A DNA stretch of 64,000 nt, from assembly GCF_050920415.1 (NCBI RefSeq), contig NZ_CP169309.1. One strand, given 5' to 3'. This DNA comes from Escherichia coli (GTDB lineage Bacteria; Pseudomonadota; Gammaproteobacteria; Enterobacterales; Enterobacteriaceae). Of the stretch, positions 1-61,237 are shown one piece after another (within the stretch, counting starts at the first letter, position 1; each line of letters begins with the position of its first letter). The position numbers and the translations under genes are program-made. The notes under the pieces were generated by a model that was given only the letters and a program-made list of their open reading frames with translations, did no database searches and was not told the DNA's origin.

Positions 1-1679
1 AACTCCGCCGGAAAAGAAACCGCCGCAAACCTGTGCCCTATGAACTCATTCCGGGTTCGCTGGCGCGTATGCTGTGCGCCGACTGGTGGTATCGGAAATT
101 ATGGAAGATGCGTTGCGAATGGCGGGAAGAGCAGTTGCGTGCTGTCTGTCTGGTCAGCAAAAAAGCATCTCCCTATGTCAGCTATGAAGCCGTGATGCAT
201 AAACGTGAGCAGCGCCGTAAGTCGCTGGAGTTTTTCCGTTCTCATGAACTGGTGAACGAAGACGGCGACACGCTGGACATGGAGGATGTGGTAAACGCCA
301 GCAGCAGCAACCCTGCGCATCGCCGCAATGAGATGATGGCCTGTGTTAAAGGCCTGGAGCTTATCGCGGAAATACGCGGTGACTGCGCCGTTTTCTACAC
401 CATCACCTGTCCGTCACGTTTCCATTCCACGCTAAATAACGGCAGGCCCAACCCGACCTGGACAAATGCGACGGTAAGACAAAGCAGTGATTATCTGGTT
501 GGCATGTTTGCTGCATTTCGTAAGGCGATGCACAAAGCCGGATTGCGCTGGTATGGCGTGCGGGTGGCTGAGCCGCATCATGACGGTACAGTTCACTGGC
601 ACCTGTTGTGTTTTATGCGCAAAAAAGATCGCCGCGCCATTACTGCTTTGTTGCGTAAGTTTGCCATTCGTGAAGACCGCGAGGAGCTGGGGAATAACAC
701 GGGACCACGCTTTAAGTCTGAGTTGATTAACCCGCGCAAAGGAACGCCGACAAGCTACATCGCGAAATATATCAGTAAGAACATTGACGGGCGTGGTCTG
801 GCTGGCGAGATCAGCAAGGAAACGGGTAAATCCCTGCGTGATAACGCTGAATACGTGAATGCCTGGGCGTCTCTGCATCGTGTTCAGCAATTCCGCTTCT
901 TTGGCATTCCGGGGCGTCAGGCTTACCGTGAACTGCGATTGCTGGCTGGTCAGGCGGCAAGGCAACAGGGTGACAAAAAAGCAGGTGCGCCGGTACTGGA
1001 TAACCCGCGCCTTGATGCAATCCTGGCTGCTGCTGATGCTGGTTGTTTTGCCACCTACATCATGAAGCAGGGCGGCGTACTGGTTCCCCGTAAATATCAC
1101 CTCATCAGAACCGCTTATGAAATCAACGAAGAGCCAACCGCCTATGGCGATCACGGTATTCGTATTTATGGCATCTGGTCACCCATTGCAGAGGGCAAGA
1201 TCTGCACTCATGCAGTGAAGTGGAAAATGGTTCGTAAGGCCGTTGACATTCAGGAGGCGGCAGCCGACCAGGGCGCTTGCGCCCCTTGGACTCGTGGCAA
1301 TAACTGTCCCCTTGCTGAAAATTTGAACCAACAGGAGAAAGATAAATCAGCTGATGGGGGCCCCAGAACGGACTTTACCCGCATGGATGACAAGGAGTTG
1401 CACGATTACCTGCACAGTATGAACAAAAAGGGGCGCCGGGAACTGGCTGCAAGGTTACGTCTGGTGAAACCGAAACGGCGTAGAGACTACAAACAGCGAA
1501 TTACAGACCATCAACGACAGCAGCTCGTCTATGAACTGAAATCCAGAGGATTTGATGGCAGCGAGAAAGAGGTCGATTTACTCCTTCGCGGCGGCAGTAT
1601 TCCGTCAGGAGCAGGCCTGCGTATCTTCTATCGGAACCAGCGTTTGCAGGAAGATGATAAGTGGCGGAACCTGTATTAA
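1..1679 (+). CDS. phage replication initiation protein (P2 gpA-like rolling-circle endonuclease), 5' end outside window
   Basis: Frame is open from window start (no stop before the GTG at 33); 548+ aa resembling P2/186 gpA; position upstream of the A-Q variable region. Confidence 0.8.
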
Positions 1680-1772
1680 TTACGCTGGTTAACAATTCGT
1701 GCTCTTAATAATACCAGGCATATCAGGCTGATAAGCGTAAAAAAAACGTTTTACATCAGTAAGATTATTATA

Positions 1773-1792
1773 TACTGTAAATATAAACAGTG
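1773..1792 (+). promoter_or_regulatory. LexA (SOS) box tACTGT-N8-ACAGtg
   Basis: Sequence tactgtaaatataaacagtg fits CTGT-N8-ACAG consensus; lies ~45 bp upstream of the small ORF/DinI-like pair. Confidence 0.55.
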
Positions 1793-1833
1793 GTTATACA
1801 TACAGCATTGCGTGTGGTGTCATAGGAGGAAAG

Positions 1834-2022
1834 ATGCAGGACTATTTTTTGGAGTCTTTGAAGCTCCAGCGCATTGATTTTTTTCTTAAGCTTGTAGCGG
1901 CTAGTGAGTGTAGTGATGAAGAGAAGGGGCTGGCTCTGCAGTGGGTTTCTGAATTGACTGATGAACTCATGGCAAAAATCAGAAGCCACGAATACAACCG
2001 CTCAATGGATGTCATCAGCTGA
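1834..2022 (+). CDS. small hypothetical protein, possible Tum-like antirepressor N-terminal part
   Basis: 62 aa ORF with ggagga RBS 6-8 nt upstream; follows LexA box; overlaps the DinI-like frame by ~60 nt in a different frame. Confidence 0.45.
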   Translation: MQDYFLESLKLQRIDFFLKLVAASECSDEEKGLALQWVSELTDELMAKIRSHEYNRSMDVIS

Positions 2023-2032
2023 GGTGACTTTT

Positions 2033-2266
2033 ATGCGCATTGAAATAATGATCGATAAAGAGCAGAAGATTAGCCAGTCTACCCTGGACGCCCTTGAATC
2101 CGAGCTTTACCGCAATCTGCGCCCCCTGTATCCCAAAACGGTAATCCGTATCCGTAAAGGTAGCTCTAACGGTGTGGAACTGACCGGACTGCAACTGGAC
2201 GAAGAAAGAAAACAAGTGATGAAAATTATGCAGAAGGTGTGGGAAGACGACAGCTGGCTGTATTGA
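2033..2266 (+). CDS. DinI-family protein (damage-inducible, RecA modulator-like)
   Basis: 77 aa starting MRIEIMIDK...; conserved DinI motifs (MRIE, LDAL..EL, WE..W near C-terminus); gagg RBS before ATG 2033. Confidence 0.75.
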   Translation: MRIEIMIDKEQKISQSTLDALESELYRNLRPLYPKTVIRIRKGSSNGVELTGLQLDEERKQVMKIMQKVWEDDSWLY

Positions 2267-2321
2267 TTTTGTCAATAGACGCTTGTTTTTACTAATCAAA
2301 AAGGGTTACATATGAGTGAGA

Positions 2322-2352
2322 GGCGATGTCAATCAGATATCGCCTTGTTTTT
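2322..2352 (+). terminator. putative rho-independent terminator after DinI-like gene
   Basis: ggcgat...atcgcc stem followed by ttgtttttt. Confidence 0.35.
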
Positions 2353-2379
2353 TGTCAAGAAAAGAATAATAGGCTAAAA

Positions 2380-3057
2380 ATGAAAATTAATAATGTAGCG
2401 TTACCAATATCTCTTGCTGTAATCCTAACTGGTTGCGTGCCACATGCTTCTAACCGAAATATCACTGCTATTGAAGTGGTGAAGCCTGCTATTGGGCAAA
2501 GTGCTACCGCCTACATGGGCGATCCCATTATCACATCTGCTACTGGATTTAAAACGGACGTACTAGAACTTGGTGCGGCTAATGGTGCATTGTCTTCTAT
2601 CGCTGCTGGTACATATTGCAGTGAGGGGAATGGAATTTACCGCAATTATCATAACCCTCAAGCTGTTGCGTTAAAAAATCTCTATGGGCAAATCGGTAAC
2701 TATGTTGATTATGTTAGTTACGATGCTGCAAAAAATGAGATATCACCGCCAAATGGTACTTCTTATACTGCATCAGAAATTTCTATCAAACGTGTTCCTG
2801 ATGGGCTGTGTCGAGTTAGTAACTCATTGGTTAAGACTATCGAATACAATGGAAATGCAGGCGGTGTAATGAAGTTCACCTATCGTGAATTTGCAAACGA
2901 TATGGCTCGTGCAGCATTTACAACAGATTTTTCTGTAGATTCTAAGGGAAGTGACGTTATCGCTTACAAAGGTGCCAAGTTCAAAGTGAACAAGGCTGAT
3001 AACTCGTCTATTTCTTATACAATTATTTCTGGCTTTGACAAGGCTGTCACGTTCTAG
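2380..3057 (+). CDS. orphan lipoprotein (225 aa), unknown function
   Basis: Signal peptide MKINNVALPISLAVILTG followed by Cys (lipobox LTGC); AT-rich relative to phage backbone; ORF-track start 2326 trimmed to ATG 2380. Confidence 0.6.
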   Translation: MKINNVALPISLAVILTGCVPHASNRNITAIEVVKPAIGQSATAYMGDPIITSATGFKTDVLELGAANGALSSIAAGTYCSEGNGIYRNYHNPQAVALKNLYGQIGNYVDYVSYDAAKNEISPPNGTSYTASEISIKRVPDGLCRVSNSLVKTIEYNGNAGGVMKFTYREFANDMARAAFTTDFSVDSKGSDVIAYKGAKFKVNKADNSSISYTIISGFDKAVTF

Positions 3058-3161
3058 GTTTCACGCTTACTGAGTATGTTACGATTTTGCACATTCTGCA
3101 TAAGCGCGCATGTCTATGCTGCATGAGATCGCATGATCGTTTGAGGATCTTTTGTGTTAAG

Positions 3162-3186
3162 GCCCGCCAGTTCTGGCGGGCTTTTG
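3162..3186 (+). terminator. rho-independent terminator
   Basis: gcccgcca-gttc-tggcgggc hairpin followed by ttttg. Confidence 0.55.
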
Positions 3187-3230
3187 CGTAGATCATGCAG
3201 GTGCATGAAAACCACTACATAAAGCGGGCA

Positions 3231-3250
3231 GGCGTGGCGGGGATACGAGC
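3231..3250. other. candidate cos (cohesive end) site of P2/186-like phage
   Basis: ggcgtggcggggatacgagc resembles the GGCG(A/T)GGCGGGGAAAGCA(C/T) cohesive-end sequence of P2/186 as I recall it; lies between the accessory region and the portal end. Confidence 0.3.
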
Positions 3251-3374
3251 GCGCGCTCATGGTTGAATTAATGAAATTATGGTGTTAAATAGGCTAGCTT
3301 TTTAAGTCGTGAATATTTGTCAACGCCAAGATTATTGGCCGTTTTTCGCCATTTTTAATGTCCGCTATTGGTCA

Positions 3375-4167
<793 letters not shown>

Positions 4168-4171
<4 letters not shown>

Positions 4172-5338
4172 AACAGCTCCTCATAGGCACTCAACGGCCT
4201 GTGTTCCACCTGACTGACCTGCTGCCAGAGTGGGGCGTGATGCTCCGGCACGGTCTGCCAGCCGTATACAGCCGAACAGAGACGGTGCGATGCTACCTGT
4301 TGCTCATTACTGTAGATCCGCAGTTCATCATCCAGCGAGATCCGTATTGATACCGGCTGGCCACACAGGCTTTCCGGCACGCTGTAACGGTTCCCGCCAA
4401 CCTCGATATAGCCATCCCAGGAGACATGACGGATATCGAAGTAGCTGGTATCGAAGTCCGTACCTGGCAGCGCCTGCAGATGCACCTGTTCCTGCGTGAA
4501 GCGCTGTTCCGGTGTCTGCCTGAACTGGCGAAGTCCCGCCTGTCGGCAACGTCAGCCATCCACTGCTCCAGTAGCTGATTAACATGGGCGAAGCTGTCGA
4601 ACCGGCGGTACCGGACGAAGAAGTTTTCCTTGAGGTATTTCACCATCCGTTCCACCTTACCTTTGGTTCTGGCCCTTCGTGGACGGCAGGCCCGTGGCAG
4701 GAAGCCATAGTGATGGCCAGCAGCAGGAACCCGGAGTTGAACACCACCTTCCCGTTGTTATTTTTCAGCACTGCGGCTTTCTGGTTATCGACCAGCACGG
4801 TTTTCACGCTGCCGCCGAAGTAGCGAAAGGCGCGGACCAGTGACTCATAGGTATGTTCAGCATCCTGCTTTGGTGCCGCGAAGACATGGAAGCGACGTGA
4901 GAACCCCAGCGTATTAACCGCGAAGTTAACCCTGCATCGTTGCCCGGCAACCTCAGCCTCAACTTCTCCCCAGTCATGCTGTAGCTGGTAACCGGGCTGA
5001 GTTTCGAAGCGAACCGTTTTCTTCGATGGCCGCATCTTACGTTTGGGCTGGATGTAGTAACGCAACATGGAACGGCCACCGGTATAACCCATCGCTTTGA
5101 TTTCCGCCAGGATGACCTCGCCGTTCCAGACATTCTCAGCCAGACGCATGTCGATATAGTCCATGAACGGCTTGAGTTTGGCCATTTTGTGGCGTGTTTT
5201 TCTGGCCGGAGGTTCCGGGTATTTCAGGTACCGTCTGACAGTCCGCTCAGAGCAACCAACCTGAGTGGCAATATCAACAATATACGCACCTTGCTGGCGC
5301 ATTTGCTTTATCATGTAAAAGTCCTCTCTGCTCAGCAT
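4168..5338 (-). pseudogene. istA: istA (IS21 transposase) split by at least two frameshifts
   Basis: Three consecutive ORF fragments (4640-5338, 4293-4655, 4168-4485) together cover an IstA-like protein. Confidence 0.6.
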
Positions 5339-5485
5339 GAGTGTTCCCTTTGTGGTGTAGGAACCTTAAGGAAACAACATGTTGGGTGGAGCGGACAATC
5401 CAAATGGTGAATTACTGTCTTATATCATTGGCGCTGACATATTCAATTTTTCAACTCATTTTTTTCATAGGGAGGAGTAATTGAC

Positions 5486-6184
5486 ATGGTTATGTTAGTG
5501 GATGACTGTCCACGATGTGGATCACAAAAAATAGCGTTTGATGTTAATGGGCTGAATTGCACTAGGGTTTACAATGCATTGGGCGGGGGTAAAACATACG
5601 AGTACGAGGTCTATTGTGTTTGCCGAGAGTGTCATAAAACGACAATGTTTCTTTGCAGACCTTTAACGAAAAATAAAACTTTAGATGGCTATAATTGGGA
5701 AAGTGGAATATTCGGCTTAAAGGAAGTTGCAGAGGTTGTTAGGCCTATATCACCGGCAGACTTAGCAGTAGAGGAGCCACCAGAGTTCTTACCTGAGCAT
5801 ATCAATAGTGCATATGAGGAAGGGGCGAAATGTTTGGCTATAGGTTGTTATAATGCAGCAGCAACCATGTTTAGGCTTTGCCTTGATTATGCCACAAAAG
5901 GACTTCTTCCTGATGGGGAGCAAGGGCCTGCGCAAAAAATAAGGAGAAGCCTAGGGTTAAGAATGGAGTGGTTATTTGATAATCATCTACTGCCTGAAGC
6001 TTTAAGGGAACTAGCTGAATGCGTTAAAGATGACGGAAATGATGGAGCGCATGAAGGTATTTTGGATAAAGCTGCTGCTGAGGATCTTGAAGATTTTACC
6101 TATCTTTTTTTAGAACGGCTTTACACTGAACCTCAACGCCTTATCGAAGCCAAGACAAGGCGTGAACAAAGAAGAAACAAATAA
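5486..6184 (+). CDS. orphan protein with N-terminal 4-Cys zinc ribbon and C-terminal DUF4145-like domain; candidate phage-encoded defence/abortive-infection gene
   Basis: CPRC...CREC motif at N-terminus; C-terminal region with LAECVKDDGNDGAHEG signature typical of DUF4145 as I recall it; agggaggag RBS; AT-rich; sits between IS21 and the portal gene. Confidence 0.6.
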   Translation: MVMLVDDCPRCGSQKIAFDVNGLNCTRVYNALGGGKTYEYEVYCVCRECHKTTMFLCRPLTKNKTLDGYNWESGIFGLKEVAEVVRPISPADLAVEEPPEFLPEHINSAYEEGAKCLAIGCYNAAATMFRLCLDYATKGLLPDGEQGPAQKIRRSLGLRMEWLFDNHLLPEALRELAECVKDDGNDGAHEGILDKAAAEDLEDFTYLFLERLYTEPQRLIEAKTRREQRRNK

Positions 6185-29026: not shown

Positions 29027-29389
29027 TGGTGGAGCTGGCGGGAGTTGAACCCGCGTCCGAAATTCCTACATCCTCGGTACTACATGCTTAGTCAGTCTTT
29101 ACATTCGCTTGCCAGCTGCGGACGGACACGCCACTAACAAACTAGCCTGATTAAGTTTTAACGCTTCAACCCCAGGCAGGGCTTCCACGCGATCTCTTTT
29201 GGGTTTGACCTCTCTTGATCCCCGTCCTAAGAGCGGAGGCTAGGGAGAGAGGGCTCTAAGCAGGTTATTAAGCTGCTAAAGCGTAGTTTTCGTCGTTTGC
29301 GACTATTTTTTGCGGCTTTTTACGAGGCCAACCGCCCCTCGGCATGCACCTTGGGTTTCGCAAATCCCGTCGAATCCAGAATCAGCCCC
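29027..29389 (-). ncRNA. ssrA: tmRNA (SsrA), 363 nt
   Basis: Reverse complement matches E. coli tmRNA from GGGGCUGAUUCUGG 5' end to GCCAGCUCCACCA 3' end, including tag-encoding region. Confidence 0.95.
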
Positions 29390-31525: not shown

Positions 31526-33187
31526 TTACGCCGCAAGCAGTTCTTTCGCATTCGCCAGTGTGTTACGTGTGACTTCACTGCCACCAAGCAGGCGCGCCAG
31601 CTCTTGTAACCGCGCTTTTTTGTCCAGCGACTCCATATGCGTTTCTGTCATCGCACCATCGGTTTCTTTGCTGACAAAATAGTGTTGATGACCACATCCC
31701 GCGACTTGTGGCAGGTGGGTAACACACATCACCTGAGTTGATTCGCCGAGTTGACGCAGCAGTTTGCCGACAACTGCCGCTGTTGGACCGCTAATCCCTA
31801 CATCCACTTCATCAAAAATCAGTGCCGGGGTTTCCATTTTACGCGCTGTGATGACCTGAATTGCCAATGCGATGCGGGACAATTCACCACCAGATGCGAC
31901 TTTGGCAATAGGCTGCATTGGCTGACCTGGGTTGGTGGTTACCCGAAACTCAATACGATCAGCGCCGTCAGCGCCCAGGTGATGCTCGTCAAATTTAACA
32001 TCAATCGTAAACTGCCCATGCGGCATAGAGAGTGCATGCATACTGTCGGTGATCAGCTGTGCCAACTCATTTGCATAATGCTGGCGTTGCTGGTGTAACG
32101 CGCGCGCCGTTTCCAGTGCCTGCTGATGATGTTTCGTTACCGCCAGCGCGAGCGTTTCTTGTGAGTCGGCCTGATTGTCCAGTTGCTGCTGCTCTTCCAG
32201 TAGCGACTGGTAATACTGTGGCAATACCTCAGGGCTGACGTGATGTTTACGTGCCAGCGAAATCTGTTTTGAGATGCGCTGTTCAAGTTCAAACAGTCGG
32301 TTGGGATCGAGATCCAGACGATCGCAGTAGTGGCGTAGTTCGTCGCTGGCTTCAACAATCTGGATGGTAGCTTCTTCCAGCATATCAAGTACGCCGGACA
32401 GTTTGCTGTCCATGCCAATCAATTCGCTCACCAGTTGTTTAGCCGTGTAAAGCTGACTTTGCAGGTTTGCGTCTTCGCCGTCGGCCATTAATGCCAATGC
32501 ATTCTGGCTGGTGGTCAGCAATTGACCGCTGTTCGCCAGACGTTTGTACTCTTCGTCGATTTGCTCAAACTCTCCGGGCTGCGGATTAAATTCGTTCAGT
32601 TCTTTTAATTGGTATTGCAGCAGCTCCGCACGAGCGGCGCGTTCCTGACTTAACTGTTGATGATGCGCGAGGTCGCGGCAGCTTTGATGCCACAACTGAT
32701 AACGTGCGGTCATTTCCTGAAGCAGAGAGGTTTCATTGGCATAGCCATCAAGCAGGAATTTTTGGTGCTCGGGTTTGGTGAGTAATTGATGGGCGTGCTG
32801 ACCATGGATCTGAATGAGCAACTGGCCCAGTTCGCGCAGTTGTGACAGTGGAACAGCTGTACCGTTGATAAAACCACGAGAGCGACCATCGCTACTGATT
32901 ACGCGACGAAGCAGGCATTCACGGCCATCTTCCAGTTGGTTTTCTTCCAGCCAGCGCAGTGCTGCGGGTGTATCTTTCAGAGAAAAACGGGCGCACAGAT
33001 CTGCGCGAGCAGCGCCGGTACGCACCATGTCGGCTTCAGCGCGACCGCCGAGACAAAGGCCCAGGGCATCTATTGCAATAGATTTACCCGCGCCAGTCTC
33101 GCCGGTGATTACGGTCATGCCGCTGTGAAAATCAATCTCAAGCTCACGAACGATAGCAAAGTTGCTGATGGTCAGTTGTGCCAACAT
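31526..33187 (-). CDS. recN: DNA repair protein RecN
   Basis: 553 aa, Walker [12 protein letters not shown]-like. Confidence 0.95.
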
Positions 33188-33213: not shown

Positions 33214-33255
33214 TACTGTTATTGTGTACAGTATAAACTGGTTTTATATACAGTA
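33214..33255 (-). promoter_or_regulatory. tandem LexA boxes in recN promoter
   Basis: tactgttattgtgtacagta (33214-33233) and aactggttttatatacagta (33236-33255) fit CTGT-N8-ACAG. Confidence 0.7.
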
Positions 33256-51482: not shown

Positions 51483-51519
51483 TCTCCAGTAGCAACTTTG
51501 ATCCGTTATGGGAGGAGTT

Positions 51520-54093
51520 ATGCGTCTGGATCGTCTTACTAATAAATTCCAGCTTGCTCTTGCCGATGCCCAATCACTTGCACTCGGGCACGACAACCAA
51601 TTCATCGAACCACTTCATTTAATGAGCGCCCTGCTGAATCAGGAAGGGGGTTCGGTTAGTCCTTTATTAACATCCGCCGGCATCAATGCTGGTCAGTTGC
51701 GCACAGATATCAATCAGGCATTAAATCGTTTACCGCAGGTTGAAGGCACTGGTGGCGATGTCCAGCCCTCACAGGATCTGGTGCGCGTTCTTAATCTTTG
51801 CGACAAGCTGGCGCAAAAACGTGGTGATAACTTTATCTCGTCAGAACTGTTCGTTCTGGCGGCACTTGAGTCTCGCGGCACGCTGGCCGACATCCTGAAA
51901 GCAGCAGGGGCGACCACCGCCAACATTACTCAAGCGATTGAACAAATGCGTGGAGGTGAAAGCGTGAACGATCAAGGAGCTGAAGACCAACGTCAGGCTT
52001 TGAAAAAATACACTATCGACCTCACCGAACGAGCCGAACAAGGCAAACTCGATCCGGTGATTGGCCGTGATGAAGAAATTCGCCGTACCATTCAGGTACT
52101 GCAACGTCGTACTAAAAATAACCCGGTGCTGATTGGTGAACCAGGCGTTGGTAAAACAGCCATCGTTGAAGGTCTGGCTCAGCGTATTATCAATGGCGAA
52201 GTACCGGAAGGGCTGAAAGGCCGCCGCGTACTGGCGCTGGATATGGGCGCGCTGGTGGCCGGGGCGAAATATCGCGGTGAGTTTGAAGAACGTTTAAAAG
52301 GCGTGCTTAACGATCTCGCCAAACAGGAAGGCAACGTCATCCTGTTTATCGACGAATTACATACCATGGTCGGTGCGGGTAAAGCCGATGGCGCAATGGA
52401 TGCCGGCAACATGCTGAAACCGGCGCTGGCGCGTGGTGAATTGCACTGCGTAGGTGCCACGACGCTTGACGAATATCGCCAGTACATCGAAAAAGATGCT
52501 GCGCTGGAACGTCGTTTCCAGAAAGTGTTTGTTGCCGAGCCTTCTGTTGAAGACACCATTGCTATTCTGCGTGGCCTGAAAGAACGTTACGAACTGCACC
52601 ACCATGTGCAAATTACTGACCCGGCAATTGTTGCAGCGGCGACGTTGTCTCATCGCTACATTGCTGACCGTCAGTTGCCGGATAAAGCCATCGACCTGAT
52701 CGATGAAGCAGCATCCAGCATTCGTATGCAGATTGACTCAAAACCAGAAGAACTCGACCGACTCGATCGTCGTATCATCCAGCTCAAACTGGAACAACAG
52801 GCGTTAATGAAAGAGTCTGATGAAGCCAGTAAAAAACGCCTGGATATGCTCAACGAAGAACTGAGCGACAAAGAACGTCAGTATTCCGAGTTAGAAGAAG
52901 AGTGGAAAGCTGAGAAAGCGTCGCTTTCTGGTACGCAGACCATTAAAGCGGAACTGGAACAGGCGAAAATCGCCATTGAACAGGCTCGCCGTGTGGGTGA
53001 TCTGGCGCGGATGTCTGAACTGCAATATGGCAAAATTCCAGAACTGGAAAAGCAACTGGAAGCCGCAACGCAGCTCGAAGGCAAAACTATGCGTCTCTTG
53101 CGTAATAAAGTGACCGACGCCGAAATTGCTGAAGTGCTGGCGCGTTGGACGGGGATTCCGGTTTCTCGCATGATGGAAAGCGAGCGCGAAAAACTGCTGC
53201 GTATGGAGCAAGAACTGCACCATCGCGTTATTGGTCAGAACGAAGCGGTTGATGCGGTATCTAACGCTATTCGTCGTAGCCGTGCGGGGCTTGCGGATCC
53301 AAATCGCCCGATTGGTTCATTCCTGTTCCTTGGCCCAACTGGTGTGGGTAAAACTGAGCTTTGTAAGGCGCTGGCGAACTTTATGTTTGATAGCGACGAG
53401 GCGATGGTCCGTATCGATATGTCCGAGTTTATGGAGAAACACTCGGTGTCTCGTCTGGTTGGTGCGCCTCCGGGATATGTCGGTTATGAAGAAGGTGGCT
53501 ACCTGACCGAAGCGGTGCGTCGTCGTCCGTATTCCGTCATCCTGCTGGATGAAGTGGAAAAAGCGCATCCGGATGTCTTCAACATTCTGTTGCAGGTACT
53601 GGATGATGGACGTCTGACTGACGGGCAGGGGAGAACGGTCGACTTCCGTAATACGGTTGTCATTATGACCTCTAACCTAGGTTCCGATTTGATTCAGGAA
53701 CGCTTCGGTGAACTGGATTATGCGCACATGAAAGAGCTGGTACTCGGTGTGGTAAGCCATAACTTCCGTCCGGAATTCATTAACCGTATCGATGAAGTGG
53801 TGGTCTTCCATCCGCTGGGTGAACAGCACATTGCGTCGATTGCGCAGATTCAGTTGAAACGTCTGTACAAACGTCTGGAAGAACGTGGTTATGAAATCCA
53901 CATTTCTGACGAGGCGCTGAAACTGCTGAGCGAGAACGGTTACGATCCGGTCTATGGTGCACGTCCTCTGAAACGTGCTATCCAGCAGCAGATCGAAAAC
54001 CCGCTGGCACAGCAAATACTGTCTGGTGAATTGGTTCCGGGTAAAGTTATTCGCCTGGAAGTTAATGAAGACAGGATTGTCGCCGTCCAGTAA
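51520..54093 (+). CDS. clpB: disaggregase chaperone ClpB
   Basis: 857 aa from ATG 51520 ([11 protein letters not shown]); two AAA+ modules. Confidence 0.95.
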
Positions 54094-56070: not shown

Positions 56071-56242
56071 CCTTAAAGAACTGTTCTTTGCAGTGCTCAC
56101 ACAGATTGTCTGATGAAAAGTGAATAGCAAGGCGTTTACGCGTTGGGAGTGAGGCTGAAGAGAATAAGGCCGTTCGCTTTCTGTTAATGAAAGCTCACCC
56201 TACACGAAAATATCACGCAGCGCGTGATAAGCAATTTTCGTG

Positions 56243-56318
56243 TCCCCTTCGTCTAGAGGCCCAGGACACCGCCCTTTCACGGCGGTAACAGGGGTTCGAA
56301 TCCCCTAGGGGACGCCAC
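56243..56318 (+). tRNA. gltW: tRNA-Glu (UUC) in 16S-23S spacer
   Basis: gtccccttcgtctagaggcccaggacaccgccctttcacggcggtaacaggggttcgaatcccctaggggacgcca. Confidence 0.95.
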
Positions 56319-59938: not shown

Positions 59939-61237
59939 ATGACTGAAAGTACTGTAACGGCAGACAGCAAACTGACAAGTAGTGATACTCGTCGCCGCAT
60001 CTGGGCAATTGTGGGGGCCTCTTCAGGTAATTTGGTCGAGTGGTTCGATTTCTATGTCTACTCGTTCTGTTCACTCTACTTCGCCCACATCTTCTTCCCT
60101 TCCGGGAACACGACGACTCAACTACTGCAAACAGCAGGTGTTTTTGCTGCGGGATTTCTGATGCGCCCAATAGGCGGTTGGCTATTTGGCCGGATAGCCG
60201 ATAAACATGGTCGCAAAAAATCGATGTTGTTATCGGTGTGTATGATGTGTTTCGGCTCACTGGTTATCGCCTGTTTGCCAGGCTACGAAACAATCGGTAC
60301 CTGGGCTCCGGCATTATTGCTTCTTGCTCGTTTATTCCAGGGATTATCCGTTGGCGGAGAATATGGCACCAGCGCCACCTATATGAGTGAAGTTGCCGTT
60401 GAAGGGCGCAAAGGTTTTTACGCATCATTTCAGTATGTGACGTTGATCGGCGGGCAACTGCTAGCTCTACTGGTTGTCGTGGTTTTACAACACACCATGG
60501 AAGACGCTGCACTCAGAGAGTGGGGATGGCGTATTCCTTTCGCGTTAGGAGCTGTGTTAGCTGTTGTGGCGTTGTGGTTACGTCGTCAGTTAGATGAAAC
60601 TTCACAACAAGAAACACGCGCTTTAAAAGAAGCTGGATCTCTGAAAGGATTATGGCGCAATCGCCGTGCATTCATCATGGTTCTCGGTTTTACCGCTGCG
60701 GGCTCCCTTTGTTTCTATACCTTCACCACTTATATGCAGAAGTATCTGGTAAATACTGCGGGAATGCATGCCAACGTGGCGAGTGGCATTATGACTGCCG
60801 CATTGTTTGTATTCATGCTTATTCAACCACTTATTGGCGCGCTGTCGGATAAGATTGGTCGTCGTACCTCAATGTTATGTTTCGGTTCTCTGGCAACCAT
60901 TTTTACCGTTCCTATTCTCTCAGCATTGCAGAACGTTTCTTCGCCTTATGCCGCTTTTGGTCTAGTGATGTGCGCCCTGCTGATAGTGAGTTTTTATACT
61001 TCAATCAGTGGAATACTAAAGGCTGAAATGTTCCCGGCACAGGTTCGCGCATTAGGTGTTGGTCTGTCGTATGCGGTCGCCAATGCTATATTTGGTGGCT
61101 CAGCAGAGTACGTAGCGTTGTCGCTGAAATCAATAGGAATGGAAACAGCCTTCTTCTGGTATGTGACCTTGATGGCCGTGGTGGCGTTTCTGGTTTCTTT
61201 GATGCTACATCGCAAAGGGAAGGGGATGCGCCTTTAA
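59939..61237 (+). CDS. kgtP: alpha-ketoglutarate permease (MFS)
   Basis: 432 aa, 12-TM MFS transporter. Confidence 0.9.

What the first reader, a model, noticed from the sequence alone, without database searches (positions are those of the whole stretch)
1755..2266. SOS-box-controlled Tum/DinI-like module, possibly a split antirepressor
A near-perfect LexA box precedes a 62-aa ORF and an overlapping DinI-family ORF in a different frame. Together they are ~139 aa, close to the single Tum antirepressor of phage 186, whose C-terminus is DinI-like. This suggests the prophage is SOS-inducible (186-type) rather than P2-type, and that tum is either naturally split or frameshifted here.
Basis: partly seen in the sequence, partly recalled or inferred. 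Interest (0 to 1): 0.45.

Follow-up and report, generated by a model that had tools for sequence, protein, structure and literature searches.

The report
Split Tum antirepressor SOS module
This is the well-known DNA-damage switch of a Fels-2-type (P2/186-like) prophage: a LexA-repressed promoter driving a small antirepressor gene (tumA) and a separate DinI-like gene (tumB). It is ordinary and already described, not a frameshifted gene.

Summary
A LexA box (1773-1792) lies 61 nt upstream of a 62-aa ORF (1834-2022), followed by a DinI-family ORF. The "overlap" comes from choosing the longest ORF. The conserved DinI start is ATG 2033, 10 nt after the first stop, with its own Shine-Dalgarno.

The 62-aa protein is homologous to the N-terminus of 186 Tum, shown by Smith-Waterman, HMM and PHROG tests. 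The DinI ORF is 41% identical to Tum residues 71-145.

The split is natural. Eight relatives keep 189-bp and 234-bp cistrons. Their spacers are 10, 11 or 12 nt, giving all three relative frames, and pN/pS is about 0.1. The module occurs in 1124 of 5426 complete E. coli genomes, annotated as two genes in every record inspected.

It is 96.8% identical to Fels-2 and 646/651 nt identical to the E. coli HS prophage. A 2024 preprint deleted exactly this ORF in HS and lost mitomycin-C induction. Lemire et al. 2011, citing Bunny et al. 2002, already describe tum as split in Fels-2 and PSP3.

One detail may be undescribed. The operator looks like a colicin-type pair of overlapping SOS boxes (second box 1788-1807), whereas I found one LexA box upstream of 186 tum.

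Verdict: already known; low interest.

The parts
33..1679 (+). C-terminal 548 codons of the P2/186 gpA replication endonuclease. It is cut by the window start and is the gene immediately upstream of the SOS module, as in 186, PSP3 and Fels-2.
   Evidence: Pfam Phage_GPA E=7.8e-116. Gene order is the same in 186, Fels-2 and PSP3.
1750..1755 (+). Predicted -35 hexamer TTTACA of the SOS promoter, the equivalent of 186 p95.
   Evidence: TTTACA (TTTACT in one relative) sits exactly 17 nt before TACTGT in all seven Fels-2-type relatives, although the spacer sequence has diverged. The layout matches the p95 promoter annotated in the 186 record. The generic promoter scan did not find it.
1773..1792 (+). 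SOS (LexA) box 1, TACTGTAAATATAAACAGTG. Its left half, TACTGT (1773-1778), doubles as the predicted -10.
   Evidence: In 186 the annotated -10 is also the TACTGT inside the LexA site.
1788..1807 (+). Putative SOS box 2, CAGTGGTTATACATACAGCA, overlapping box 1 by 5 nt. The left half is degenerate and the right half is ACAGCA (ACAGTA in E. coli HS and Fels-2).
   Evidence: The CAGTGG(T/A)TA...TACAG motif is invariant in seven relatives. The Fels-2 copy of the operator is 90.5% identical over 42 nt to the region about 43 nt upstream of colicin-like bacteriocin genes on ColE1-type plasmids. [quoted passage not shown] LexA binding here is not tested.
1834..2022 (+). tumA: 62-aa antirepressor homologous to the N-terminal domain of 186 Tum, with SD GGAGG at 1825-1829. 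It is predicted to be a helical hairpin.
   Evidence: - Homology to 186 Tum.
- 100% identical to E. coli HS WP_001154431.1, the gene deleted as 'tum' in PMC11195241.
- pN/pS 0.08-0.13.
- AF2 model pLDDT 87.6, helices 2-23 and 28-61.
2033..2266 (+). tumB: 77-aa DinI-family protein with SD GAGGTG at 2021-2026. It corresponds to the C-terminal half of 186 Tum and to its internal product Tum72.
   Evidence: - Pfam DinI E=6.6e-23.
- 41% identity to Tum residues 71-145.
- phrog_189 E=1.5e-29.
- PDB 1GHH DinI E=2.4e-6.
- pN/pS 0.05-0.16.
2320..2356 (+). Intrinsic terminator-like hairpin (11-bp stem, 5-nt loop) followed by a T-run, 54 nt after the tumB stop. It is the positional analogue of 186 t95a.
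   Evidence: -17.5 kcal/mol, z = -2.95. The 186 record annotates t95a at the same relative position.
2380..3057 (+). Downstream gene in the position of 186 orf97: a 225-aa putative lipoprotein (MKINNVALPISLAVILTGC...) of unknown function. It may be reached by read-through of the terminator.
   Evidence: phrog_1353 E=3e-105, unknown function. PGAP uses this start in E. coli 95-3322 and HS. There is no similarity to 186 Orf97 and no Pfam or PADLOC hit. Whether it belongs to the operon is inferred only.

Best explanation
This is the SOS operon of a Fels-2-type (186-like) P2-family prophage, in its naturally bicistronic tumA-tumB form.

Proposed mechanism:
1. In undamaged cells LexA occupies the operator at 1773-1807. 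The operator overlaps the -10 element and the predicted transcription start of a TTTACA-17 nt-TACTGT promoter.
2. DNA damage activates RecA and LexA cleaves itself, so the promoter fires.
3. TumA (62 aa) is made and binds the prophage's 186-type CI repressor, preventing operator binding. This switches on lytic transcription.
4. TumB (77 aa, DinI family) is co-expressed and modulates RecA filaments, and so the SOS signal.

Shown here: the sequence features, their homology, their conservation, and the identity with experimentally studied modules. Taken from the literature: tum and cleavable LexA are both required for mitomycin-C induction in E. coli HS, and lexA-null is lethal in Salmonella LT2 because of Fels-2. 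Inferred: the TumA-CI contact, the role of TumB, and that this particular prophage is still inducible.
For: - Synteny: gpA, LexA promoter, tum, terminator and a downstream gene occur in the same order as in 186.
- TumA is homologous to 186 Tum residues 5-48. TumB is 41% identical to Tum residues 71-145 and is a DinI-family protein.
- The region is 96.8% identical to Fels-2 and 97.8% identical to many Klebsiella P2-like phages. PSP3 annotates the same pair as tumA and tumB.
- Eight relatives keep both cistrons at fixed lengths with spacers of 10-12 nt, and pN/pS is about 0.1 at pS up to 0.6.
- The module is in 1124 of 5426 complete E. coli genomes, annotated as two intact genes in every record inspected.
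- A LexA box lies upstream in all eight loci scanned. The -35 and its 17-nt spacing are conserved in the Fels-2-type relatives.
- PMC3121763 states that Fels-2 and PSP3 have tum split in two, with the PSP3 upstream gene carrying antirepressor activity.
- PMC11195241 deleted the gene bounded exactly by window 1834 and 2022 in E. coli HS. The primers match the window exactly, TumA is 100% identical, and 646/651 nt are identical. Mitomycin-C-induced lysis was lost, as it was in lexA(Ind-).
- HS and E. coli 95-3322 prophages with this module carry a CI/CII/Fil 186-type left arm.
Against: - BLASTP found no similarity between the 62-aa ORF and 186 Tum. Homology rests on more sensitive tests.
- PSP3 TumA does not score against the Fels-2-type HMM (E=1.1).
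- The cI/apl/int region of this prophage lies outside the window, so the target repressor and prophage integrity are unverified.
- An IS21-family element has inserted about 1 kb downstream.
- No binding or expression data exist for this exact locus.
- The statement that PSP3 TumA is the antirepressor traces to a personal communication cited in the literature.
Confidence: 0.92

Rival explanations
1. The locus is a fused 186-type tum gene broken by a recent frameshift or an assembly error. It would be a pseudogene, or would need programmed frameshifting or read-through to make a full-length Tum.
For: The two ORFs add up to 139 aa against 146 aa for 186 Tum and lie in different frames. The nearby IS copy carries frameshifted istA/istB, so frame disruptions do occur in this region.
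Against: - The arrangement (189 bp + 234 bp) is identical in Fels-2, SopEPhi, LF82, HS, a Klebsiella phage, a Yersinia phage and other E. coli prophages.
- Intergenic spacers of 10/11/12 nt give relative frames +1, +2 and 0, so no single frameshift or read-through rule could apply.
- Each cistron has its own SD and ATG.
- Both are under purifying selection.
- Some relatives (ESSI-2 and the Yersinia YenM phages) carry the tumA-like gene with no DinI gene at all.
- No fused forms appear among the 120 best of 484 homologues.
Confidence: 0.02
2. The module is intact but orphaned. The prophage in this genome is defective, through a damaged left arm outside the window or other lesions. The LexA-controlled tumA-tumB pair would then fire without producing phage, or would act only in trans on other 186-type prophages.
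For: The window starts inside gene A, so int, cI, apl, cII and the origin-proximal genes are unseen. An IS21-family element with frameshifted genes sits in the cargo region at about 3317-5441. Trans-acting antirepressor crosstalk is documented for Salmonella prophages (PMC3121763).
Against: Most of the segment from gene A to the D gene is collinear with the functional E. coli HS prophage at 94.5-98% identity (blocks longer than 300 nt). Full-length portal, terminase, capsid and tail ORFs are present. The prophage abuts ssrA, the Fels-2/SopEPhi attachment site. The IS lies in the variable cargo region rather than in an essential gene.
Confidence: 0.12
3. The 62-aa ORF is not the antirepressor. 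The functional SOS product would be the DinI homologue alone, and the upstream ORF would be a leader peptide or unrelated small protein.
For: Databases call it 'hypothetical protein', 'unknown function' or 'levan regulatory protein'. It has no Pfam family and no solved relative.
Against: It is homologous to the Tum N-terminus in the same register. pN/pS is about 0.1. A precise in-frame deletion of the identical gene in E. coli HS, leaving the DinI cistron in place, abolished induction. tumA-like genes occur behind LexA boxes without any DinI gene in other P2-like phages.
Confidence: 0.02

Closest known systems
Fels-2 (Salmonella LT2) STM2728 / STM2726.1, and the same pair in SopEPhi, RE2010, the E. 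coli HS P2-like prophage and many Klebsiella P2-like phages
   Same: The DNA is 96.8% identical to Fels-2 across 1680-2330. Cistron lengths (189 and 234 bp), the 10-nt spacer, the LexA operator and the position after gpA are the same. TumA is 100% identical and TumB differs by one residue from E. coli HS. Like Fels-2 and SopEPhi, the prophage sits at ssrA.
   Different: There are a few substitutions, including T to C at 1806 in the right half of putative SOS box 2 relative to HS and Fels-2. The cargo downstream differs, and an IS21-family element has inserted. The HS prophage sits at a different attachment site, near ybjJ/rcdA.
Tum antirepressor and the p95 SOS operon of coliphage 186
   Same: - The gene order is A, LexA-controlled promoter, tum, partial terminator, downstream ORF.
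- The -10 TACTGT lies inside the LexA box.
- The N-terminal domain is homologous to TumA and the C-terminal DinI-like domain is 41% identical to TumB.
- 186 also makes a separate DinI-like product from an internal GTG at the position where TumB starts.
   Different: 186 Tum is one 146-aa polypeptide, whereas here there are two cistrons. My scan of 200 nt upstream of 186 tum found one CTG-N10-CAG box, and the 186 record annotates one LexA site. Here the operator resembles a double box. The downstream gene is unrelated to orf97. Similarity in the N-terminal part is too low for BLASTP to detect.
PSP3 tumA / tumB
   Same: It has the same split architecture and the same position. TumB is 234 bp, and the record annotates tumA as 'similar to 5' end 186 tum; UV induction of prophage'. 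The literature assigns antirepressor activity to the upstream gene.
   Different: In PSP3 the two cistrons are in the same frame, separated by a stop codon plus 3 nt. PSP3 TumA (60 aa) is only about 14% identical to the window protein and is not detected by the Fels-2-type HMM.
Colicin/cloacin-type double overlapping SOS boxes on ColE1-like plasmids
   Same: The Fels-2 operator is 90.5% identical over 42 nt to the sequence about 43 nt upstream of colicin-like bacteriocin genes. The window copy, TATACTGTAAATATAAACAGTGGTTATACATACAGCAT, aligns with both and shares the invariant CAGTGG...TACAG motif. Colicin operators of this kind are reported to bind two LexA dimers.
   Different: In the plasmid sequence the only TTGACA lies 26 nt upstream of box 1, so by my reading both boxes sit downstream of its -10. 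In the tum promoter box 1 overlaps the predicted -10. The gene controlled is an antirepressor rather than a toxin. Whether the similarity reflects exchange or convergence is unknown.
Gifsy-prophage dinI-gfoA/gftA LexA-controlled antirepressor operons
   Same: A LexA-repressed operon combines a DinI homologue with a small antirepressor that inactivates a non-cleavable repressor.
   Different: The gene order is reversed, with dinI first. According to PMC3121763 the Gifsy antirepressors act on different repressors. I did not compare their sequences with TumA.

Membership tests
186-type Tum SOS antirepressor module | LexA-repressible promoter immediately downstream of replication gene A, with the LexA box overlapping the -10 | tested here: met
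   gpA ends at 1679. TTTACA is at 1750-1755, followed by 17 nt and then TACTGT inside the LexA box at 1773-1792. The layout matches the p95 promoter annotated in the 186 record.
186-type Tum SOS antirepressor module | Protein homologous to the Tum N-terminal (non-DinI) domain | tested here: met
   - Smith-Waterman 57 against shuffles 21.4 +/- 4.0, 0 of 3000 reaching it.
- HMM E=1e-5 against a best decoy of 0.38.
- 186 Tum residues 7-44 hit phrog_698, the window protein's family, at 2.4e-5.
- BLASTP alone found nothing.
186-type Tum SOS antirepressor module | Antirepressor and DinI-like domains fused in one polypeptide of about 146 aa | tested here: not met
   There are two cistrons, separated by a stop codon and 10 nt and lying in different frames. 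This is conserved in relatives. It works like Tum but is the split variant rather than the fused 186 form.
186-type Tum SOS antirepressor module | Protein binds the CI repressor and blocks operator binding, and is required for SOS induction | not testable with these tools
   The literature supplies what is known. Deletion of the identical gene in E. coli HS abolishes mitomycin-C induction, and PMC3121763 describes 186 Tum as binding CI. The cI gene of this prophage is outside the window.
Split tumA/tumB module (Fels-2 / PSP3 type) | Two adjacent, separately initiated cistrons: a small N-terminal-Tum homologue followed by a DinI homologue | tested here: met
   1834-2022 has SD GGAGG and 2033-2266 has SD GAGGTG. 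The arrangement and lengths are the same in Fels-2, SopEPhi, LF82, HS, a Klebsiella phage and a Yersinia phage.
Split tumA/tumB module (Fels-2 / PSP3 type) | Both cistrons maintained by purifying selection, so this is not a decaying pseudogene | tested here: met
   pN/pS is 0.08-0.13 for tumA and 0.05-0.16 for tumB, at pS up to about 0.6.
DinI family (Pfam PF06183) | Significant match to the family profile over its full length | tested here: met
   E=6.6e-23, 81.3 bits against a cut-off of 24.2, covering profile positions 1-63 of 63. PDB 1GHH DinI scores E=2.4e-6.
DinI family (Pfam PF06183) | Binding to RecA filaments and modulation of the SOS response | not testable with these tools
   Inferred from family membership and from the 186 record's note on truncated Tum ('modulates SOS induction').
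Colicin-type double overlapping SOS operator | Two 20-nt LexA boxes overlapping by a few nucleotides, with sequence similar to colicin operators | tested here: inconclusive
   The sequence similarity is clear: the Fels-2 operator is 90.5% identical over 42 nt to plasmid bacteriocin promoters, and the CAGTGG...TACAG motif is invariant across seven relatives and the plasmid. However, box 2 has a degenerate left half (CAGTGG) and, in this window, ACAGCA instead of ACAGTA. I did not score it with a LexA matrix.
Colicin-type double overlapping SOS operator | Occupancy by two LexA dimers | not testable with these tools
   This needs a footprint or gel shift.

The most novel reading that the evidence does not exclude
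Fels-2-type tum promoters, this one included, may carry a colicin-type pair of overlapping SOS boxes rather than the single box I found in 186. That would let two LexA dimers hold the antirepressor off until late or severe SOS, giving a high-threshold, all-or-none induction. It would also imply that Col plasmids and P2-like phages have exchanged, or converged on, the same roughly 40-nt operator. I found no description of this for tum, but I could not read Bunny et al. 2002, the paper most likely to have noted it.
Probability: 0.4. Interest if true: 0.3.

Novelty: already known. Interest (0 to 1): 0.1.

Why it matters
The module explains how this very common class of E. coli, Salmonella and Klebsiella P2-like prophages responds to DNA damage, including damage from antibiotics. 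It is present in about 21% of complete E. coli genomes. That has bearing on phage-mediated gene transfer in the gut.

The biology is already established. What this check adds:
- It shows the locus is not a frameshift artefact.
- It ties the 62-aa "hypothetical protein" (no Pfam family; PHROG families labelled "unknown function") to a published antirepressor. This is an annotation gap, not a knowledge gap.
- It flags a colicin-like double SOS box that could set the induction threshold.

Tried and rejected
- BLASTP of the 62-aa ORF against 186 Tum gave no alignment. Smith-Waterman with shuffles, an HMM against decoys, and PHROG profiles then detected the homology.
- Pfam, PDB sequence search and Foldseek of the AF2 model gave nothing specific for TumA. 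The Foldseek hits were generic helical hairpins, none with E below 0.001.
- I tested a hairpin spanning the tumA stop and the tumB SD (2011-2028) as a possible translational-coupling element. It is not significant (z = -1.28) and the intergenic sequence differs in SopEPhi, so I dropped it.
- The downstream long ORF (2326-3057) is 243 aa, the same length as 186 Orf97, but the two share no similarity.
- The generic sigma-70 scan missed the SOS promoter because TACTGT is a poor -10. I assigned the promoter by comparison with 186 p95 and by conservation.
- The E. coli HS prophage-junction primers are absent from the window. The prophage here is at ssrA, not at the HS site.
- Bunny et al. 2002 (PMC151935) is not held in the library. 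I used what later papers say about it.
- A full-text search for the operator sequence string found only irrelevant papers.

Full report
**1. What is in the sequence**

The window begins inside a P2/186-type replication gene A (33-1679; Pfam Phage_GPA E=7.8e-116). The features downstream, in order, are:
- A 20-nt LexA box, TACTGTAAATATAAACAGTG, at 1773-1792, with one mismatch to TACTGT-N8-ACAGTA.
- A 62-aa ORF at 1834-2022, preceded by GGAGG.
- A DinI-family ORF (Pfam PF06183 E=6.6e-23, above the curated cut-off).
- A strong terminator-like hairpin at 2320-2346 followed by a T-run (z = -2.95).

The box alone is not statistically decisive in 64 kb. There are 4 hits at up to 2 mismatches against 1.37 expected, and 3 of 100 shuffles do as well. 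Its position settles the matter, as described in section 3.

The start annotated in Fels-2, SopEPhi, LF82 and HS is ATG 2033. It lies 10 nt after the TGA stop and is preceded by GAGGTG. The PSP3 tumB start and the 186 Tum72 start align with it.

**2. Relation to 186 Tum**

The 186 record shows the order A, p95 with a LexA site, tum, terminator t95a, orf97. Tum is 146 aa and has in-frame internal starts. One is a GTG that yields a truncated, DinI-like Tum.

The window's DinI ORF is 41% identical to Tum residues 71-145 and begins at that internal start.

BLASTP found nothing between the 62-aa ORF and Tum. Three more sensitive tests agree that the two are homologous:
- Smith-Waterman aligns residues 6-41 to residues 6-41 with a score of 57. 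Shuffles average 21.4 +/- 4.0, and 0 of 3000 reach 57.
- An HMM built only from Fels-2/ESSI-type proteins hits 186 Tum residues 5-48 at E=1e-5 and a Yersinia phage "tum protein" at 1.7e-6. The best of 560 decoys scores 0.38.
- In PHROGs the window protein hits phrog_698, phrog_8554 and phrog_1993. The 186 Tum N-terminus hits the same three, including phrog_698 at 2.4e-5 over residues 7-44.

The multiple alignment shows a shared core, L-x-R-I...L-x-A...C...A-L...E. AlphaFold2 predicts a helical hairpin with pLDDT 87.6. It has no informative structural neighbours.

**3. Natural split or frameshift**

The region 1680-2330 is 96.8% identical to Fels-2 and 97.8% identical to many Klebsiella P2-like phages, and its first 585 nt are 99.3% identical to an E. 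coli prophage record. Where these records are annotated, they show two genes.

The window and seven relatives all keep tumA at exactly 189 bp and tumB at 234 bp. Six of the relatives are E. coli 95-3322, LF82, Fels-2, SopEPhi, E. coli STEC383 and a Klebsiella phage; the seventh is a Yersinia pestis phage. The intergenic spacer is 10, 11 or 12 nt, so the second cistron lies in frame +1, +2 or 0 relative to the first. Each cistron has its own Shine-Dalgarno sequence. pN/pS is 0.08-0.13 for tumA and 0.05-0.16 for tumB, at synonymous divergence up to about 0.6.

The module is present in 1124 of 5426 complete E. coli genomes. It is annotated as "hypothetical protein" plus "DinI(-like) family protein" in every full-length hit of the 15 records sampled, and in the four loci inspected in detail. 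Among 484 homologues of the 62-aa protein, the 120 best are all about 62 aa or N-terminally over-called, and none is fused. Some P2-like phages (ESSI-2, ESSI2_ev015, Yersinia YenM phages) carry the tumA-like gene behind a LexA box with no DinI gene.

A frameshift, an assembly error or programmed recoding is therefore excluded. The two functions are modular.

**4. The promoter and operator**

A CTG-N10-CAG box lies 38-65 nt upstream of the tumA-like start in all eight loci scanned. These are the window, Fels-2, SopEPhi, PSP3, ESSI2_ev015, two Yersinia YenM phages and 186.

In the Fels-2-type relatives a TTTACA hexamer (TTTACT in one) sits exactly 17 nt before the TACTGT of the box, although the spacer sequence has diverged. 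This mirrors the annotated 186 p95, whose -10 is the TACTGT inside the LexA site. I infer a transcription start near 1785.

The sequence just 3' of the box, CAGTGG(T/A)TA...TACAG, is also invariant across seven relatives. Read as a 20-mer (1788-1807), it is a second LexA-like site overlapping the first by 5 nt.

A 45-nt Fels-2 operator query hit 1212 plasmid records, mostly small mobilisable ColE1-type plasmids. The strongest plasmid hits are copies of the prophage module itself, and the small ColE1-type plasmids follow at 90.5% identity over 42 nt. In the two plasmids I inspected, the hit lies about 43 nt upstream of a colicin-like bacteriocin gene that is followed by immunity and lysis genes. 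The sequences align base for base.

[quoted passage not shown] My scan of 186 found only one box upstream of tum.

In this window the right half of box 2 reads ACAGCA, where E. coli HS and Fels-2 read ACAGTA. Binding of a second LexA dimer is inferred, not shown.

**5. What the literature already says**

- Lemire et al. 2011 (PMC3121763) note that Tum looks like an antirepressor fused to DinI. [quoted passage not shown] 2002. [quoted passage not shown]
- The PSP3 record annotates tumA and tumB accordingly.
- lexA-null is lethal in Salmonella LT2 because of Fels-2 induction (PMC8072944).
- The Phollow preprint (PMC11195241) built an in-frame tum deletion in the P2-like prophage of E. coli HS by fusing the start and stop codons. 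It reports that the tum deletion and lexA(Ind-) both abolish mitomycin-C-induced lysis and virion foci.
- Their junction primer, ATAGGAGGAAAGATG|TGAGGTGACTTTTATGCGCATTG, matches window 1822-1836 and 2020-2042 exactly, and their confirmation primers match as well. Their "tum" is therefore precisely the 62-aa ORF.
- The HS locus is 646/651 nt identical to the window. TumA is 100% identical and TumB differs by one residue. The HS prophage has a CI/CII/Fil left arm of the 186 type.

**6. Mechanism and confidence**

The proposed sequence of events is as follows. DNA damage activates RecA. LexA then cleaves itself, and the TTTACA/TACTGT promoter is released. A tumA-tumB mRNA is made, with possible read-through of the terminator into the lipoprotein-like gene at 2380-3057. 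TumA binds the prophage CI repressor and blocks its DNA binding, which starts lytic development. TumB (DinI) modulates RecA filaments.

Sequence anatomy, homology, conservation and identity to experimentally tested loci are shown here. The biochemical steps come from 186 and from the relatives' literature.

It is inferred that this particular prophage is still inducible. Its left arm is outside the window, and an IS21-family element lies in the cargo region. Most of the segment from gene A to gene D is collinear with the functional HS phage at 94.5-98% identity, and the prophage abuts ssrA at 29027-29389.

**7. Verdict**

The frameshift alternative is rejected.

The module is already known, so interest is low. 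The only possibly undescribed point is the colicin-like double SOS box. It is a modest regulatory detail and needs a LexA footprint.

Noticed in passing
window 33214-33255: Two strong LexA boxes 2 nt apart (TACTGTTATTGTGTACAGTA and AACTGGTTTTATATACAGTA) lie just upstream of a 553-aa minus-strand ORF (31526-33187). From its size and neighbours (292-aa and 197-aa ORFs, 160-aa and 158-aa ORFs, then ssrA) this looks like recN with its known multiple SOS boxes. It serves as an internal positive control for the LexA search. I identified it from synteny and ORF length only.
   Followed up: partly
window 29027-29389 (-): The tmRNA gene ssrA (tag ANDENYALAA) lies directly beyond the prophage's D/ogr end. 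This is the attachment site reported for Fels-2 and SopEPhi (PMC3448106). The near-identical tum module of E. coli HS and 95-3322 belongs to prophages at a different site, near ybjJ/rcdA. I did not map the exact att core.
   Followed up: partly
window ~3317-5441: An IS21-family element (ISEc62-like) has inserted in the prophage cargo region between the tum operon and the portal gene. Both istA and istB are broken into several ORFs. A 99.8% identical copy in another E. coli genome is likewise annotated as frameshifted. This suggests a degenerate IS lineage, or shared homopolymer sequencing errors.
   Followed up: partly
window 5486-6184 (+): A 232-aa cargo protein. Its LF82 counterpart at the same position is annotated DUF4145. 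It matches phrog_1305 'DNA binding protein' at 9.5e-53 and has a weak PADLOC hit to the defence candidate PD-T7-4 (1.2e-6). It sits in the variable slot between tum and the portal gene. Relatives carry other proteins there, such as AIPR-family or DUF262-domain proteins.
   Followed up: partly
window 2326/2380-3057 (+): A putative lipoprotein (MKINNVALPISLAVILTGC...) occupies the position of 186 orf97. The longest ORF is 243 aa, exactly the length of Orf97, but there is no sequence similarity. It matches phrog_1353, unknown function. The ATG at 2326 lies inside the terminator hairpin, so 2380 is the likelier start, and PGAP uses it in relatives.
   Followed up: partly
L005, L006, L007, L009 (ESSI2_ev015, ESSI-2, Yersinia YenM phages): In these P2-like phages a tumA-like gene sits behind a LexA box with no DinI gene after it. 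In ESSI-2 the ORF is not annotated at all. This shows the antirepressor and DinI modules are separable.
   Followed up: partly
window 1834-2022 and its homologues in public databases: There is an annotation gap. The TumA-type antirepressor has no Pfam family. Its PHROG families (698, 8554, 1993) are labelled 'unknown function'. RefSeq calls it 'hypothetical protein', and some records call it 'levan regulatory protein'. Meanwhile the full-length 186 Tum is labelled only 'RecA filament binding protein DinI'.
   Followed up: yes
window 1806: The window and E. coli 95-3322 have C where E. coli HS and Fels-2 have T, in the right half of putative SOS box 2 (ACAGCA versus ACAGTA). If box 2 is functional, this natural variant could change the induction threshold.
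   Followed up: no
window 59950-59969: A LexA-like 20-mer with one mismatch (TACTGTAACGGCAGACAGCA) lies inside the first codons of a 432-aa ORF (59939-61237). It is probably a chance match.
   Followed up: no
window 56242-56317: A tRNA-Glu (UUC) lies in an ORF-poor stretch between an 861-aa ORF (51508-54093) and the 432-aa ORF. It presumably sits in the spacer of an rRNA operon. I did not check this.
   Followed up: no
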